Virus record (IMG/VR): IMGVR_UViG_2700989545_000014
Direction: 5' to 3' (one strand)
DNA length: 11,068 nucleotides
Source of the DNA: a virus
Taxonomy: Duplodnaviria > Heunggongvirae > Uroviricota > Caudoviricetes
The notes under the pieces are model-generated. The model had not been told where the DNA came from. It worked only from the letters and a program-made list of their open reading frames with translations, and ran no database searches. Positions 1 to 9,218 of the stretch are shown here, one piece after another (position 1 is the stretch's first letter; each line of letters starts with the position of its first letter). Made by a program: the position numbers and the translations under genes.

Positions 1-37
1 GATAAGAATAAAATCAAAGCAATAAGCAGTGTCGTGA

Positions 38-60
38 AACCACCTTCGGGTGGTTTTTTT
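38..60 (+). terminator. Rho-independent terminator (7-bp stem, UUCG tetraloop, T7 run)
   Basis: aaccacc-ttcg-ggtggtt at 38-55 followed by ttttttt to 60, read directly from the sequence. Which transcript it ends is unknown because the upstream gene is outside the window. Confidence 0.5.
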
Positions 61-145
61 GTATTTGTATTTTGTGCAATGGCGGTTGAGTGGCGATGGT
101 GTGGCGATATGCAGAAACAATGGTAGTGCACGTGCTGTTTAAACT

Positions 146-250
146 CTAAGGATGAAGCAGAATTCTTCTGCAGCTCCTCCGTATTTCGCATAGTGAACCA
201 GGACTTCTGTTAAACAAAAATTTTTCTGGGATTTTTCCACTCGACTTCAT
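146..250 (-). pseudogene. Degenerate hok/mok-like remnant (upstream leader frame fused to the Hok C-terminal motif, toxin N-terminus deleted)
   Basis: Minus-strand AGGAGG then ATG at 250 gives MKSSGKIPEKFLFNRSPGSLCEIRRSCRRILLHP*. The FLFNR-P segment matches the short frame upstream of the intact hok at 1178..1273 and GSLCEIR matches the Hok core. Relative to 1050..1420 about 130 bp covering the toxin transmembrane codons are absent and the frame shifts after SLCEIR. Confidence 0.35.
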
Positions 251-531
251 TTTTCCTCCTGCAATCCACCAACAGGTACCTGCGCTAATCTATCTTTTTA
301 ATCTGACAACATCTTGGGAAAAGGCAAATTCGTCAGATTTACTGTTTTTCTGCTGCCTCGAATGCCGATGTCTGAAGCACTGATAAGAGTTCTATCTCTT
401 TGATATAGATCTTTTTTTTGATGAATTGCACGACATATTATCGTTATGACACCTTCTTGTTAAAGGTATTGTACTCCTCATCTCGATTTTATGATGTGGG
501 CTATGATTGGTTAGTAATAGAGTGTATCGGT

Positions 532-813
532 ATGCGATGTGGTTTATTAATGGCAATCTGCCTTTGTTTAGTATCTTTTAGCGGATATGCAGCAACAGGA
601 AAGTCTGATGCTCAGATCAAAAAAGAAATAATTAAAGAATCCATTGAATCTTATCCAGGCAATTGTGCGTGTCCTTATAATCATGCAAGGAATGGTAGTA
701 GATGTGGTGGACGCAGTGCATATAGCCGTAATGGAGGGTATGACGTGGTATGTTATGAGGGTGATGTTACCGATGAAATGATCCGGCAATGGAAGCAGGA
801 GAATGCTGAGTAA
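532..813 (+). CDS. Small secreted Cys-rich protein of unknown function (93 aa with predicted signal peptide)
   Basis: The ORF track frame is 418..813. The signal-peptide-like segment MRCGLLMAICLCLVSFSGYA-ATGKSD (basic n-region, hydrophobic core, A-x-A site) begins at the ATG at 532, so 532 is the preferred start. The mature part has 5 Cys (GNCACPYNH...CGG...VVCYEG). The region is markedly AT-rich compared with the phage genes. The Shine-Dalgarno is weak (GAGTG). Confidence 0.5.
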   Translation: MRCGLLMAICLCLVSFSGYAATGKSDAQIKKEIIKESIESYPGNCACPYNHARNGSRCGGRSAYSRNGGYDVVCYEGDVTDEMIRQWKQENAE

Positions 814-879
814 TCTCTTTTAACAGGTTTGTTGTGCGAGCATTATGTGCCGTTAACGGTACACTAGCTAGTGATAGTT

Positions 880-922
880 CCAAAAAGAAAACCCGCAGTT
901 CTTACGCTGCGGGTTTGTTGTT
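880..922. terminator. Bidirectional rho-independent terminator
   Basis: Stem cccgcag (892-898) / ctgcggg (907-913) with an 8-nt loop. It is flanked by tttgttgtt on the plus strand and ttttcttttt on the minus strand, so it can end both the 532..813 gene and the minus-strand hok transcript. Confidence 0.6.
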
Positions 923-1001
923 CATGTCTGTGAGATAGGGTGCCACTTCAGCCAACCTTAGCAACCGATTGACGGGGGATTGCTCCCCCGTCGCGGTTTC
1001 C

Positions 1002-1142
1002 TTACTGCTTACACTGTAAGAACGCCGCAAACTCCGCTCCCCAGAAGCTCATCCGTATTTCACACAGCGAACCGTGTAGCATCCAGATGATGAGGATTAC
1101 CGTCACGCAGAACGTGATGGCCGTAAGCGATTTTTGCGACAT
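1002..1142 (-). CDS. hok: Hok/Gef-family type I toxin (46 aa membrane peptide)
   Basis: Hand translation of the minus strand gives MSQKSLTAITFCVTVILIIWMLHGSLCEIRMSFWGAEFAAFLQCKQ*. It has an N-terminal hydrophobic helix plus the conserved Hok core SLCEIR and the AAF(L) C-terminal motif seen in Hok, Gef, RelF, PndA and SrnB. AAGGAG lies 8 nt upstream of the ATG. It is absent from the ORF track because it is under 60 aa. Confidence 0.7.
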   Translation of the reverse strand: MSQKSLTAITFCVTVILIIWMLHGSLCEIRMSFWGAEFAAFLQCKQ

Positions 1143-1177
1143 AGCGCTTGCTCCTTTGTTGGAGAGGCGCTAACCTA

Positions 1178-1273
1178 TCACTTGCTTAAGGTAGATATGT
1201 TAGGGCCTCGGTTAAACAGAAATGTTTTCCGGGGCCTTTCCACATCTGGCCTTCGGGTATTCCCTCCGACCAT
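1178..1273 (-). CDS. Short upstream (mok-like) reading frame in the hok leader
   Basis: The 31-codon frame MVGGNTRRPDVERPRKTFLFNRGPNISTLSK* shares the FLFNR-P peptide with the remnant copy at 146..250. Unlike classical mok it stops about 35 nt before the hok start and has no clear Shine-Dalgarno, so its function is uncertain. Confidence 0.25.
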   Translation of the reverse strand: MVGGNTRRPDVERPRKTFLFNRGPNISTLSK

Positions 1274-1333
1274 CAGCCGAAAGGCACCCGCGCGTAATCT
1301 ATCGCTTTTTTGTTACTCCGGCAATTCTGCCTG

Positions 1334-1594
1334 TTAATTCTGAGGTAAAGGCAAACTCATCTGATTGTTTCCCCTGTGTGAAGCTGGCAGCTCATGCCAC
1401 GGGATACCTTCTGAAGAGTGAACGCCGGAGGTGTGTTTTGATGTGAATTTATGGAAAGCTTCCAGTGTTGAGAAGCATACGCCGCATTCCAGGTTGTTAC
1501 ACTGGTAATACTTTTGCCGCACGGTGTTTGAATCATTTTCAGGACGACTGGTGCGGATACGGGCAGATGCGCCACAAAGCGGACAACGGAACAT
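1334..1594 (-). CDS. ogr: Ogr/Delta-family zinc-finger late-gene transcriptional activator (86 aa ORF, C-terminus atypical)
   Basis: The N-terminus MFRCPLCGASARIRTSR...YYQCNNLEC has the CxxC...CxxxxC zinc-finger layout and matches P2 Ogr (MFHCPLC...). AAGGGAGG lies 5 nt upstream of the ATG at 1594. The ORF is longer than P2 Ogr (72 aa) and its last ~28 codons lie in DNA homologous to the hok-like repeat. Confidence 0.8.
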   Translation of the reverse strand: MFRCPLCGASARIRTSRPENDSNTVRQKYYQCNNLECGVCFSTLEAFHKFTSKHTSGVHSSEGIPWHELPASHRGNNQMSLPLPQN

Positions 1595-1636
1595 AGCGAC
1601 CTCCCTTAACGTGGTGCTGCTGCTATTCTAAGTTGC

Positions 1637-2746
1637 TCACTCTGTTTCTGCTATCCATTCCGAGATTTTTGCCTCAAGCTCAAGCTGCGTGGTAAAGCCG
1701 CTGTTATCGATGGTGTGCTCGGCTTTTGCAATAATCCAGTCCTGATTATCAATCTCGCTTTTAAATCCTGTTACCGTGCCATGCATTTCGGGGTAGAGTT
1801 CTGCACGACCACATGCCAGCGTGATGGAGAATGATGCGGCTCCGCGTTGTAGCTGCTGCCACTTTGCCGCCGCTGCGCGTCTTGCTGCCTGCTCGTTCTG
1901 ATAAGTCTTGCGTAACACAAACACATTGCCTTCCGCGCCTTCCATATAATCACCTTCACGGCTGCTGCTTTTCTCCTTTTTGGGTTTTGGCGGTTTACGG
2001 CGTTTCACGCTGACTTTTTTCTTTTTCCCGTAATTAAGATCAAGCCAGTAGGCGCGTACCCCCGTATACGCCTCGCGGTCAGCAATACGGAACTGATGGC
2101 GATCGCCGCTGCTGCGTGTAATGGCGAACGAGGGCAACGGCTGGCCCTGTGCGTTCACGCCACCACCTGGCATGATGAATAACAGATTGCCGCTTTTTAC
2201 CGTGGTGATTGCGCCCAGCATTTCCGCCATGCGCGTAAGGAAGGACATATCGCTTTCTTCGGTCTGGTCGGCGTGGTCGATTTCGATATCCATCAGCATT
2301 TCGCTGATTTGCGGTTTCAGACCGTACCGATGAGCGATGGCAGATACCACGCGCTCAACGGTCACATCATGCCAGGACACCTCACGTTTAACGTTAAATT
2401 CATCCCGAAAATCTGCGCTTCTGGCTGAAACAGTCAGCCTGTCCGGCGGTCCTTCGTGAGCGATTTCATCAACAATGTAAGTGCCTTTTTCTGTCAGCGG
2501 TTCTCCTTTCCAGCCAATGAGAACCGTCAGGCGCGCGCCCCGTGGCGGTAGCTGCAACTGACCATCCGCATCATCCAGCGTGATGGTGAGCTGGTCCGCC
2601 TCAAATCCCCGGTTGTCGGTCAGTGACAGGCTCATCAGGCGCTCTGCCACGCCTGACAGCGTTTTACCCTCCGCGAGAATATCAAAATCCGGCATTTTCA
2701 CGGGGTCTGTGCCCTGACTGAGCAATTGCATGGTGGTATCGGTCAT
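1637..2746 (-). CDS. D: P2 gpD-family tail protein (phage late control gene D protein)
   Basis: The 369-aa product contains SLSLTDNRGFEADQL...LTVLIGWKGEPL, typical of the gpD family. The start is placed at the ATG at 2746 (MTDTTMQLL), which is preceded by GGGAGGG; the track ORF extends to 2878 without a ribosome-binding site. Confidence 0.85.
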   Translation of the reverse strand: MTDTTMQLLSQGTDPVKMPDFDILAEGKTLSGVAERLMSLSLTDNRGFEADQLTITLDDADGQLQLPPRGARLTVLIGWKGEPLTEKGTYIVDEIAHEGPPDRLTVSARSADFRDEFNVKREVSWHDVTVERVVSAIAHRYGLKPQISEMLMDIEIDHADQTEESDMSFLTRMAEMLGAITTVKSGNLLFIMPGGGVNAQGQPLPSFAITRSSGDRHQFRIADREAYTGVRAYWLDLNYGKKKKVSVKRRKPPKPKKEKSSSREGDYMEGAEGNVFVLRKTYQNEQAARRAAAAKWQQLQRGAASFSITLACGRAELYPEMHGTVTGFKSEIDNQDWIIAKAEHTIDNSGFTTQLELEAKISEWIAETE

Positions 2747-2903
2747 CTGTTCCCTCCCTGTGCGGCATGGTCGCATGTGCGTGCGGAGGGGGTTACTGCT
2801 TTTTGTTGTCGCCGTGGCGGGAGAACGGCGCAGGGGTGAGATTACGCACGTGGTGGGTGATGATTGTTGCCGAATCATTTAACGGATACAAGGGGCTGAA
2901 GCT
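2747..2903. promoter_or_regulatory. Divergent intergenic region between D-ogr and the FI operon (expected late promoters)
   Basis: This 157-bp non-coding spacer lies between two divergent starts. By analogy with P2 the FI operon should have an Ogr-dependent promoter here, but no clean TGT-N12-ACA dyad was found by eye. Confidence 0.3.
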
Positions 2904-4655: not shown

Positions 4656-5030
4656 ATGAAAGACATCGATACTGAAACCCGGAATAACACCGTGGCGGAT
4701 GATGTGACGGCAGGTGAGGATATGGCTGTCGAACGTGGCGTAAAACTGACCCGACCAATTGAGCGTGGTGGCGAAAAAATCACGTATGTGGAGATCACCG
4801 GGGCTATTGAGCAGGCTGGATCCCTGCGTGGTCTGTCGCTGTCTGATGTGCTGAATCTGAAAGCGGATACCATGTTTACGCTGTTGCCTCGCGTGACCTC
4901 GCCACGACTGGATGAAGTGATGATTAAAAAAATGTCGTCACGCGATTTTATTCAGTTGTGCGCAGTGGCTGTAAATTTTATGAGCGAGCCAGACTCTGGC
5001 GCGAAGAGCGTGCAGGAGACGGCAGCGTAA
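4656..5030 (+). CDS. E: Tail assembly chaperone gpE
   Basis: The 124-aa ORF has AAGGAG 7 nt upstream and sits between the tube and tape-measure genes, where P2 and lambda (G/GT) carry the chaperone pair. A slippery heptamer lies near its 3' end. Confidence 0.8.
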   Translation: MKDIDTETRNNTVADDVTAGEDMAVERGVKLTRPIERGGEKITYVEITGAIEQAGSLRGLSLSDVLNLKADTMFTLLPRVTSPRLDEVMIKKMSSRDFIQLCAVAVNFMSEPDSGAKSVQETAA

Positions 5031-8594: not shown

Positions 8595-8645
8595 CTCTTA
8601 ACCTTATAACATGTGTGGTCTGAAATAATAATTAAGGAGATTATC

Positions 8646-9218
8646 GTGCTGTCTTACCTAATGGCAATTCACTTTGTTTTATTTGGGAACTCTACTAATT
8701 TAAAAAACTTCTGGAAACATGAAGTAATTCGGCGGAAACGTATGGATATCTGGAGGCTTTTAAGAGAGAAAAAGCAGCGTAACAGGAATTTCCTTTTCTG
8801 GTGGCGGTTGGCTAACGAAATGTATATTAATGGTAATAAATTACATAAGAAAGCAGCCAAGAAGTTAAACAGTAAAATAATTAACAAATTTGGTTGCGAA
8901 ATTGGATTGGGCGCAAATATTGGAAAAGGGTTAACAATTCCCCATCATGCTGGAATTGTTGTTCATTTTGCTGTTGATGCTGGTGAAAATCTGGTGTTAC
9001 GACAGAATACGACCATTGGACAGATAGATGGTGACATACCTGGTTCAAGAGTAAAAATTGGTAGCAACGTTGATATCGGAGCTAATTGTTGCATCATTGG
9101 ATTATCCCGTAAAATTGGGGATAATGTAAAAATAGGTGCAATGTCTTTTATAAATAAAGATATACCATCGAACTGCACATATATAACTAAAAAGAGCGGT
9201 GCTGTATTGTATAAATAG
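8646..9218 (+). CDS. Hexapeptide-repeat (left-handed beta-helix) O-acetyltransferase of the CysE/WcaB/NodL type, prophage cargo (moron) gene
   Basis: The C-terminal two-thirds shows imperfect hexapeptide repeats (GCEIGLGANIGKGLTIPHHAGIVV...VKIGSNVDIGANCCIIG...IGDNVKIGAMSFI) resembling serine and polysaccharide O-acetyltransferases. The start is placed at GTG 8646, 6 nt after AAGGAG; the track frame opens at 8613. The gene is far more AT-rich than the flanking phage genes. Confidence 0.7.
   Translation: MLSYLMAIHFVLFGNSTNLKNFWKHEVIRRKRMDIWRLLREKKQRNRNFLFWWRLANEMYINGNKLHKKAAKKLNSKIINKFGCEIGLGANIGKGLTIPHHAGIVVHFAVDAGENLVLRQNTTIGQIDGDIPGSRVKIGSNVDIGANCCIIGLSRKIGDNVKIGAMSFINKDIPSNCTYITKKSGAVLYK

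What the first reader, a model, noticed from the sequence alone, without database searches (positions are those of the whole stretch)
418..813. AT-rich gene for a small secreted Cys-rich protein between the two hok-like repeats
Its composition is strikingly lower in GC than the phage genes, implying a separate horizontal origin. The product has a plausible Sec signal peptide and a roughly 70-aa mature domain with five cysteines (NCACPYNH...RCGG...VVCYEG), which suggests a disulfide-stabilised periplasmic or secreted protein. I cannot assign a family from memory.
Basis: partly seen in the sequence, partly recalled or inferred. Interest (0 to 1): 0.45.

Follow-up and report, generated by a model that had tools for sequence, protein, structure and literature searches.

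The report
Prophage cargo gene: small secreted four-cysteine protein
This is a real gene, carried as optional cargo at the end of a P2-like prophage in E. coli (including O157:H7), for a small exported four-cysteine protein from a large, highly conserved bacterial family that has no name, known structure or known function.

Summary
The ORF is real, but the coding sequence is 532..813 (93 aa), not 418..813. The upstream extension is not conserved as an ORF. The product has a hydrophobic signal-like N-terminus, probably cut after A20. The mature part is about 73 aa and has four invariant cysteines (C45, C47, C58, C74), not five.

- **Family:** at least 2,300 clusters at 50% identity across Gram-negative phyla. 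dN/dS is 0.12-0.19. There is no Pfam or NCBIfam model, and neither PDB nor BFVD gives a fold match. PHROGs has it as phrog_27544, "unknown function".
- **Fusions:** in larger proteins the domain is joined to peptidoglycan-binding modules (SH3_3, PG_binding_1, TonB_C) and to secreted nucleases (SNase, GmrSD_C). This points to an extracytoplasmic binding module.
- **Location:** the gene lies inside the att boundaries of a P88-like prophage at tRNA-Leu (leuZ). It occupies a variable slot between the att core and hok-ogr, where related phages carry other genes.
- **Composition and mobility:** the AT-rich cassette 329-821 (CDS GC 0.41 against 0.48-0.56 for phage genes) recurs beside copA in other E. 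coli strains.
- **hok flanks:** it is flanked by a decayed hok remnant and an intact hok/sok locus.

The function remains inferred. Interest is moderate.

The parts
1..62 (+). Distal half of the 124-bp att core repeat. It consists of the 3'ETS-leuZ sequence and its terminator, and the prophage begins at base 63.
   Evidence: It is identical to K-12 sequence downstream of leuZ up to base 62 and diverges after that. An exact 124-bp repeat is found next to the integrase on the yecA side of the same prophage.
146..340 (-). Decayed hok locus (pseudogene) with an internal deletion of about 128 bp
   Evidence: It is colinear with the intact locus in three blastn blocks. The residual ORF 146..250(-) keeps only the 'GSLCEIR' motif of Hok.
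329..821 (+). AT-rich cassette made of the gene and about 200 bp of upstream DNA. It behaves as a unit and is found in other contexts.
   Evidence: The same span is 83-85% identical next to copA in other E. coli strains (L095, L180). GC of 340-881 is 0.395.
532..813 (+). CDS for the 93-aa precursor of the small four-cysteine protein (WP_001303543.1; ECs_2649 in Sakai)
   Evidence: RefSeq annotation. Homologues start at the equivalent Met. dN/dS is 0.12-0.19. The upstream extension is not conserved as an ORF.
532..591 (+). Probable Sec signal peptide (residues 1-20, MRCGLLMAICLCLVSFSGYA), with cleavage predicted after A20
   Evidence: The best 10-residue hydrophobic window has mean KD 3.26. The same feature is present in 201 of 209 family members. 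AF2 gives a low-confidence N-terminal helix at residues 4-15. The cleavage site comes from applying the -3/-1 rule by eye; no trained predictor was run.
592..810 (+). Mature domain of about 73 aa. It has helix 1, a loop-rich core carrying the motif YPGNC-x-CPYN...C-G-x-RSA[YW]S[RK]-x-GG...C-[YF], and helix 2.
   Evidence: Invariant residues are S37, Y41, C45, C47, P48, G55, C58, G59, R61, S62, A63, G69 and C74. AF2 models have pLDDT 77.7 and 78.7.
889..916 (.). Bidirectional intrinsic terminator shared by the cargo gene (+) and the hok mRNA (-)
   Evidence: The terminator scan finds it on both strands. Homology with the P88-like phage backbone starts at about 882.
1002..1142 (-). Intact hok (Hok/Gef toxin, 46 aa)
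   Evidence: RefSeq annotates it as 'Hok/Gef family protein'. Pfam HOK_GEF hits the equivalent genes.
1132..1289 (-). sok-like antisense/regulatory region of the intact hok locus
   Evidence: Rfam RF01794 scores 47.9 bits, E = 3.9e-9, which is below the gathering score of 59.
1334..1594 (-). ogr/Delta late-gene activator, the first backbone gene of the prophage after the cargo slot
   Evidence: RefSeq annotation. Pfam Ogr_Delta hits the homologous loci.

Best explanation
**Shown.** Window 532..813 is a genuine protein-coding gene under purifying selection. It sits in the variable cargo slot between the att core and hok-ogr of a P88-like (Peduoviridae, Xuanwuvirus-type) prophage. The prophage is integrated at the 3' end of tRNA-Leu (leuZ).

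**Shown.** Its product belongs to a very large, strongly conserved, unnamed family of roughly 90-aa proteins of Gram-negative bacteria. Each member has a hydrophobic N-terminal leader and a roughly 70-aa domain with four invariant cysteines.

**Inferred.**
- The precursor is exported by Sec and cut by signal peptidase I after A20.
- The four cysteines are oxidised in the periplasm to two disulfides. These clamp a loop-rich core between two helices.
- The 8-kDa protein acts as a free-standing copy of a promiscuous extracytoplasmic binding module. In other bacteria this module is tethered to peptidoglycan-binding domains (SH3_3, PG_binding_1, TonB_C) or to secreted DNases (SNase, GmrSD_C/HNH).
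- Its most likely activity is therefore non-catalytic binding of an abundant envelope or extracellular polymer. Peptidoglycan is the first candidate and DNA or another polyanion the second. The binding site is probably the invariant C-G-x-R-S-A-[YW]-S loop.
- In the lysogen it would act as a lysogenic-conversion ('moron') gene that alters an envelope property. The adjacent hok/sok addiction locus would hold it in place.
For: **Real gene**
- 235 homologues with E down to 1e-57.
- The profile search gave 2,304 cluster representatives at E <= 1e-3 and 1,479 at E <= 1e-10.
- 13 columns are invariant.
- dN/dS is 0.12-0.19.

**Export**
- Hydrophobic N-termini occur in 201 of 209 stand-alone members, and 206 of 209 have exactly four Cys in the mature part.
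- There is no lipobox (read directly from the sequence).

**Binding-module inference**
- Among 48 long family members, SH3_3 occurs in 14, PG_binding_1 in 3, SNase in 3, and TonB_C, GmrSD_C and Adhesin_E in 1 each.
- The domain occurs N- or C-terminal to nucleases, next to Excalibur-like and YHYH-like motifs (both judged by eye), and as tandem copies.

**Prophage cargo**
- An exact 124-bp att repeat places the boundary at 62/63.
- P88, Chuche and other Xuanwuvirus phages share 882-1700 at 95-98% identity but carry other genes in the slot.
- GC is 0.41 against about 0.52, and a terminator lies at 889-916.
- The same gene-hok-ogr layout occurs in Salmonella at 68% protein identity and in another lineage at 74%.
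- The gene is retained in decayed prophages, such as Sakai Sp13 and strain C21.
- 616 of 5,426 complete E. coli genomes carry it.
Against: - No trained signal-peptide predictor was run, and no experiment bears on export, disulfides or ligand.
- No sigma-70 consensus promoter was found upstream, and the Shine-Dalgarno sequence is weak, so expression is unproven.
- AF2 confidence is lowest (pLDDT 58-63) exactly over the most conserved loop.
- Fold searches gave no analogue, so the 'binding module' idea rests only on domain fusions.
- Fusions to other binding modules (SH3_3, PG_binding_1) would also fit a small effector, inhibitor or enzyme domain.
- The E. coli mature protein is mildly acidic (pI 5.8) while the family median is 8.8. 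This weakens a simple polyanion-binding model for this member.
- There is no conserved gene neighbourhood to anchor a pathway.
Confidence: 0.55

Rival explanations
1. The four cysteines form a metal site (a Zn(Cys)4-type knuckle, or a Cu or other metal site) rather than disulfides, and the protein is a periplasmic metal-binding or metal-sensing module.
For: The CxC...C...C spacing resembles zinc knuckles. Seven of 91 members give weak, sub-threshold hits to a zinc-finger model (RIM2a_ZnF, best E = 0.01). One E. coli variant lies directly beside copA. One fusion carries a YHYH-like His/Cys motif, judged by eye (P0187).
Against: All hits are far below Pfam cut-offs. The family is exported, and Cys4 zinc sites are unusual in the oxidising periplasm (established knowledge of DsbA-dependent oxidation). 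No His, Asp or Met ligands are invariant. The copA adjacency is one insertion site among several, not a conserved linkage.
Confidence: 0.12
2. It is a small periplasmic inhibitor or immunity-type protein. Candidates are a lysozyme or peptidoglycan-hydrolase inhibitor, an orphan immunity protein against envelope-targeting toxins, or a superinfection-exclusion factor. It would protect the lysogen.
For: Small periplasmic proteins on prophages and plasmids often have such roles (general knowledge). The gene is the main cargo of very small mobilisable plasmids. It associates with peptidoglycan-binding domains in fusions.
Against: There is no match to Pfam families of any kind, which includes the known lysozyme-inhibitor families, and none to PADLOC defence models. 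No effector or toxin partner is conserved nearby. Conservation of 45-60% identity across classes, with 13 invariant residues, is atypical of arms-race immunity proteins. Fusions to nucleases are not explained by this model.
Confidence: 0.15
3. It is a membrane-anchored protein or lipoprotein rather than a soluble periplasmic protein. In this model the N-terminal hydrophobic segment is an uncleaved anchor.
For: PHROGs labels a distantly related short family 'membrane associated protein' (phrog_14503, E = 6e-7). The leader contains cysteines (C3, C10, C12).
Against: None of the leader cysteines is preceded by a lipobox ([LVI][ASTVI][GAS]C), as read from the sequence. Homologues lack Cys in the leader. 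Small residues at -3/-1 (G-Y-A) follow the hydrophobic core.
Confidence: 0.07
4. It is a spurious ORF in AT-rich intergenic DNA between two hok loci.
For: No consensus promoter was found. The Shine-Dalgarno sequence is weak. Every database annotates it only as 'hypothetical protein'.
Against: There are thousands of homologues with invariant residues across phyla. dN/dS is 0.12-0.19. The domain is reused in multidomain proteins.
Confidence: 0.01

Closest known systems
phrog_27544 (PHROGs v4, 'unknown function'), equivalent to the RefSeq 'hypothetical protein' cluster WP_001303543.1 / ECs_2649 of O157:H7 Sakai prophage Sp13
   Same: It is the same protein family. The match is full-length with E = 7e-58, and identical or 99% identical proteins occur in hundreds of E. 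coli genomes.
   Different: Nothing is known about this family. It has no function, structure or literature.
Prophage 'morons' / lysogenic-conversion cargo genes of P2-like phages (for example the variable tin/old and Z/fun regions of P2; recalled from general knowledge)
   Same: It lies inside the att boundaries, is dispensable because related phages lack it, has deviating GC, has a terminator, and sits in a slot that holds different genes in sister phages.
   Different: The slot is the att-proximal end next to hok-ogr, not the classical P2 variable regions. No promoter was identified and no phenotype is known.
Promiscuous small extracytoplasmic modules such as Excalibur (PF05901), YHYH and DUF3761
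   Same: It has a similar size. It occurs both as a stand-alone secreted mini-protein and fused to SNase nucleases and SH3 domains. It co-occurs with Excalibur-like and YHYH-like motifs in single proteins, judged by eye.
   Different: There is no sequence similarity. Pfam scans of 91 members hit none of these families. The Excalibur DxDxDGxxCE motif is absent. Its own motif (CxCPYN...CGxRSA[YW]S...GG...C) is distinct.
Periplasmic lysozyme inhibitors (Ivy, MliC/PliC, PliG)
   Same: They are also small Sec-exported periplasmic proteins of Gram-negative bacteria, and some are disulfide-bonded.
   Different: There is no Pfam hit of any kind above noise and no fold match. The resemblance is only one of general type.

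Membership tests
Unnamed four-cysteine exported mini-protein family (phrog_27544 / WP_001303543.1 relatives) | Significant full-length sequence similarity to family members | tested here: met
   phrog_27544 matches at E = 7e-58. There are 235 homologues and 2,304 cluster representatives.
Unnamed four-cysteine exported mini-protein family (phrog_27544 / WP_001303543.1 relatives) | Invariant core C-x-C-P ... C-G-x-R-S-A ... G ... C, plus S37 and Y41 | tested here: met
   All 13 invariant columns are present in the window protein. 206 of 209 members have exactly four Cys in the mature part.
Unnamed four-cysteine exported mini-protein family (phrog_27544 / WP_001303543.1 relatives) | N-terminal Sec-type signal peptide | tested here: inconclusive
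   A hydrophobicity heuristic is positive (KD 3.26; 201 of 209 members), and the -3/-1 rule fits by eye. No trained predictor (SignalP) was available.
Prophage moron / lysogenic-conversion cargo | Located within the integrated prophage, between the att sites | tested here: met
   An exact 124-bp att repeat places the boundary at window 62/63.
Prophage moron / lysogenic-conversion cargo | Absent from, or replaced in, closely related phages; base composition deviates | tested here: met
   P88 and Chuche carry other genes in the slot. tblastn against 50,697 phage records finds no match. GC is 0.41 against 0.48-0.56.
Prophage moron / lysogenic-conversion cargo | Own promoter and terminator, and expression from the repressed prophage | tested here: inconclusive
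   A terminator is found at 889-916. No sigma-70 consensus promoter lies upstream. Expression could not be tested.
Any Pfam-A / NCBIfam family | Score above the curated gathering threshold | tested here: not met
   Only sub-threshold noise was found: Sclerostin at 18 bits against a cut-off of 27, and RIM2a_ZnF at 11 bits against 27.
Bacterial lipoproteins | Lipobox [LVI][ASTVI][GAS]C at the end of the leader | tested here: not met
   C10 and C12 are preceded by A-I and C-L, as read from the sequence. Homologues lack a leader Cys.
Known anti-phage defence proteins (PADLOC-DB) | Match to a defence-system HMM | tested here: not met
   No family matches at E <= 0.1.
Hok/Gef-Sok type I toxin-antitoxin (flanking elements, not the gene itself) | Hok ORF of about 50 aa with a TM segment, plus an overlapping sok antisense region | tested here: met
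   Right copy: RefSeq Hok/Gef CDS at 1002..1142 and Rfam sok at E = 3.9e-9, below the gathering score. Left copy: only a deleted remnant, so not a functional member.

The most novel reading that the evidence does not exclude
The roughly 70-aa four-cysteine domain is a new fold and a new class of extracytoplasmic ligand-binding (or inhibitory) module of Gram-negative bacteria. It would target peptidoglycan or extracellular DNA. Mobile elements (P2-like prophages of EHEC and Salmonella, small ColE1-type plasmids, Xanthomonas and Pantoea plasmids) spread free-standing copies because these confer an envelope-level advantage on the host.
Probability: 0.3. Interest if true: 0.6.

Novelty: new member of a known kind. 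Interest (0 to 1): 0.4.

Why it matters
The gene is present in about 11% of complete E. coli genomes, including O157:H7 Sakai (ECs_2649), and in Salmonella prophages. Homologues also occur on the chromosome in Klebsiella and on plasmids or in genome assemblies of Pantoea and Xanthomonas. Its family has at least 2,300 clusters at 50% identity, yet it has no Pfam model, no solved or recognisable structure and no literature.

Defining it would add a new extracytoplasmic domain to the catalogue. It would also explain a recurrent piece of prophage and plasmid cargo, and clarify the architecture of a set of secreted nucleases and SH3/PG-binding proteins. As a single observation it is a solid but unspectacular 'conserved hypothetical' finding. 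Its value lies in being a clean, small and tractable target: 73 residues with two probable disulfides.

Tried and rejected
**Searches that found nothing**
- Pfam and NCBIfam on the protein, and Pfam on 91 family members, gave only noise.
- PADLOC gave nothing.
- A PDB sequence-profile search gave no hits even at E <= 10.
- The AFDB library was unavailable.
- tblastn against INPHARED phages gave no match.
- Literature searches for ECs2649/ECs_2649 and for motif strings found nothing. A search for P2-like/leuZ/prophage returned one Salmonella prophage paper, which I did not read.

**Gene-neighbourhood analysis**
- In 80 GTDB loci and four plasmids there is no conserved partner.
- The one exception is an adjacent, equally uncharacterised small secreted protein in 9 of 80 loci.

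**Readings considered and rejected**
- The 131-aa reading (TTG 418 or ATG 421), because the extension has an in-frame stop in the 83%-identical cassette and is absent from homologues.
- A lipoprotein, because there is no lipobox.
- A spurious ORF, because of the conservation and dN/dS.
- An intrinsic hok linkage for the family. The linkage holds only within the enterobacterial P2-like prophage lineage and not in plasmids or other taxa.

**Other**
- A relaxed promoter scan of 300-531 found nothing convincing.

Full report
**Where the window lies.** The window starts directly after tRNA-Leu (leuZ) of the E. coli glyW-cysT-leuZ cluster. It runs into a P2-like prophage in the order small ORF, hok, ogr, gene D, sheath, tube, tape-measure and so on. 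Bases 1-62 are identical to the K-12 3'ETS-leuZ and terminator sequence, and K-12 diverges from base 63 towards yecA. On the far side of the prophage, next to the integrase and yecA, lies an exact 124-bp copy of the 3' part of leuZ plus the 3'ETS. The att core is therefore 124 bp, the prophage begins at window base 63, and the finding lies inside the prophage.

**The observation.**
- The ORF 418..813 exists.
- The region is AT-rich. The CDS has GC 0.408 and GC3 0.287, against 0.48-0.56 for neighbouring phage genes.
- RefSeq annotates 532..813 (93 aa, WP_001303543.1; ECs_2649 in Sakai prophage Sp13).
- The shorter reading is correct. Homologues begin at the equivalent Met. In an 83%-identical copy of the cassette the upstream frame is closed by a stop 23 codons before the ATG.
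- The 93-aa product has cysteines at positions 3, 10, 12, 45, 47, 58 and 74. The first three are in the leader, so the mature part has four, not five.
- The right hok-like flank is an intact Hok/Gef gene at 1002..1142(-) with a sok-like region (Rfam E = 3.9e-9, below the gathering score).
- The left flank (about 146-340) is a decayed copy, colinear in three blocks and missing about 128 bp of the hok coding region.

**Is it a gene?** Yes.
- One search found 235 homologues, most of them 85-110 aa and 45-70% identical, from Enterobacterales, Oxalobacter, Pseudomonas and many metagenomes.
- A profile search of 1.84 billion cluster representatives found 2,304 at E <= 1e-3 and 1,479 at E <= 1e-10.
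- GTDB genomes place the family in Gamma-, Beta- and Alphaproteobacteria, Geobacterales, Myxococcales, Acidobacteria and Vampirovibrio/Cyanobacteria MAGs.
- Thirteen positions are invariant: S37, Y41, C45, C47, P48, G55, C58, G59, R61, S62, A63, G69 and C74.
- dN/dS against four diverged enterobacterial copies is 0.12-0.19.

**Export.**
- The leader MRCGLLMAICLCLVSFSGYA has a basic n-region, a strongly hydrophobic core (mean KD 3.26) and small residues at -3/-1. It has no lipobox.
- The same N-terminal hydrophobic segment is present in 201 of 209 stand-alone members, although its sequence is not conserved.
- 206 of 209 members have exactly four Cys after the leader.
- No trained predictor was available, so export is a strong inference rather than a result.

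**Structure and family.**
- No Pfam, NCBIfam or PADLOC family matches.
- PHROGs contains the family as phrog_27544 ('unknown function', E = 7e-58). Two distant short relatives also match, and one of them is labelled 'membrane associated protein'.
- There is no PDB relative by sequence profile.
- AF2 gives a medium-confidence model (pLDDT 77.7 and 78.7, pTM 0.61 and 0.66). Two helices flank a loop-rich cysteine core. Confidence is lowest over the most conserved CG-x-RSAYS-x-GG loop.

**Functional clues.** Neighbourhoods are not conserved.
- The gene is an orphan on a 5.6-kb ColE1-type E. coli plasmid, a 4.7-kb Cobetia plasmid, conjugative Xanthomonas plasmids and a Pantoea megaplasmid.
- Clustering the neighbours of 80 GTDB loci gave only one recurrent partner. 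It is another uncharacterised small secreted protein (motif GY.R.DGTYV..H.R...NWSTKGNVNPYTG), found in 9 of 80 loci.

The informative signal is domain fusion.
- Among 48 long family members, 14 carry SH3_3, 3 PG_binding_1, 3 SNase, and 1 each TonB_C, GmrSD_C (HNH-type nuclease) and Adhesin_E.
- Individual sequences show the domain N- or C-terminal to SNase, next to Excalibur-like and YHYH-like motifs (judged by eye), and as tandem duplicates.
- All these partners are extracytoplasmic. Most bind peptidoglycan or act on extracellular DNA.
- My best reading is a small disulfide-clamped binding module for an envelope or extracellular polymer. This is inference. An inhibitor or effector role, or a metal site, cannot be excluded.

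**Genomic biology.**
- P88, Chuche, P884B11 and other Xuanwuvirus phages share window 882-1700 (terminator, hok, ogr, start of D) at 95-98% identity.
- Between attP and hok, however, P88 has an unrelated 80-aa protein (phrog_12383), and Chuche has Com plus a DNA methyltransferase. This is therefore a cargo slot.
- The AT-rich cassette 329-821 behaves as a unit. It recurs at 83-85% identity beside copA in other E. coli strains, there followed by a serine acetyltransferase and a hok locus.
- In Salmonella enterica the same leuZ site carries a 68%-identical homologue followed by two intact hok genes, a third partial repeat, ogr and D. A 74%-identical copy shows gene-hok-ogr-D.
It is absent from the wider family.
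- 616 of 5,426 complete E. coli genomes carry the gene. These include decayed prophages that keep little more than gene-hok-ogr (strain C21) and an IS30-disrupted version (Sakai Sp13). This retention is compatible with selection, or with stabilisation by the hok/sok addiction module (inference).
- In Klebsiella pneumoniae a 48%-identical homologue is chromosomal, next to a prophage junction.

**Expression.**
- A bidirectional terminator lies at 889-916.
- No sigma-70 consensus promoter was found upstream.
- The Shine-Dalgarno-like AGAG is weak but conserved in position.
- Expression is untested.

**Verdict.** Three details needed correction: the start codon (532), the cysteine count (four) and the status of the left hok copy (a remnant). 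The gene is already annotated as hypothetical. It is a new member of a known kind, namely prophage cargo encoding a small periplasmic protein. Its family is nevertheless a large, strongly conserved and completely uncharacterised extracytoplasmic domain.

Noticed in passing
window 1-62; L007 about 4873-4996; L002 11939-12062: The prophage att core is an exact 124-bp repeat that includes the whole 3'ETS-leuZ small-RNA sequence and its terminator. Lysogens therefore carry a second copy of this sequence, next to the integrase and joined only to the 3' part of leuZ. Whether that copy is transcribed is unknown.
   Followed up: partly
window 8613-9218 (+): A second AT-rich cargo gene (GC 0.353), annotated as serine acetyltransferase, sits between the tail genes and the tail-fibre assembly gene. 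A 58%-identical acetyltransferase lies between the small Cys-protein gene and hok at the copA site of strain CP131_Sichuan (L180 5811-6383).
   Followed up: partly
L010 5333-5638; L017 3283-3609; L034, L046, L062, L074, L088, L090, L092: In 9 of 80 GTDB loci, spanning Xanthomonas, sphingomonads, Geomonas and Vampirovibrio, the homologue is directly adjacent to another small secreted protein on the same strand. That protein has the motif GY.R.DGTYV..H.R...NWSTKGNVNPYTG and no Pfam match. It may be a functional partner.
   Followed up: partly
L097 4340-5505 (Salmonella enterica): The Salmonella counterpart of this prophage end carries two intact hok genes and a third partial hok-locus repeat in tandem, downstream of the small gene. 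The hok locus is therefore repeatedly duplicated in this slot.
   Followed up: partly
L142-L178 (IMG/VR); L030 (K. pneumoniae ATCC 13883): About 36 IMG/VR prophage predictions include a 48%-identical homologue exactly 1,052 bp from the contig end. Comparison with the K. pneumoniae type strain shows this is a host chromosomal gene next to a prophage junction, not phage cargo.
   Followed up: yes
window 1637-2878 (-): The maximal ORF for gene D is 413 aa, whereas RefSeq annotates 369 aa (1637..2746). In strains 55989 and TOK-001, D is truncated to 266 aa, and an extra 1.46-kb gene is inserted between ogr and D in TOK-001.
   Followed up: no
window 435-463 (-): The only sigma-70 consensus match in 60-1400 is on the minus strand inside the discarded 418-531 extension (TTAACA-17-TAATAT), pointing towards the hok remnant. 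One match is fewer than the 2.8 expected from shuffles, so it is probably chance.
   Followed up: no
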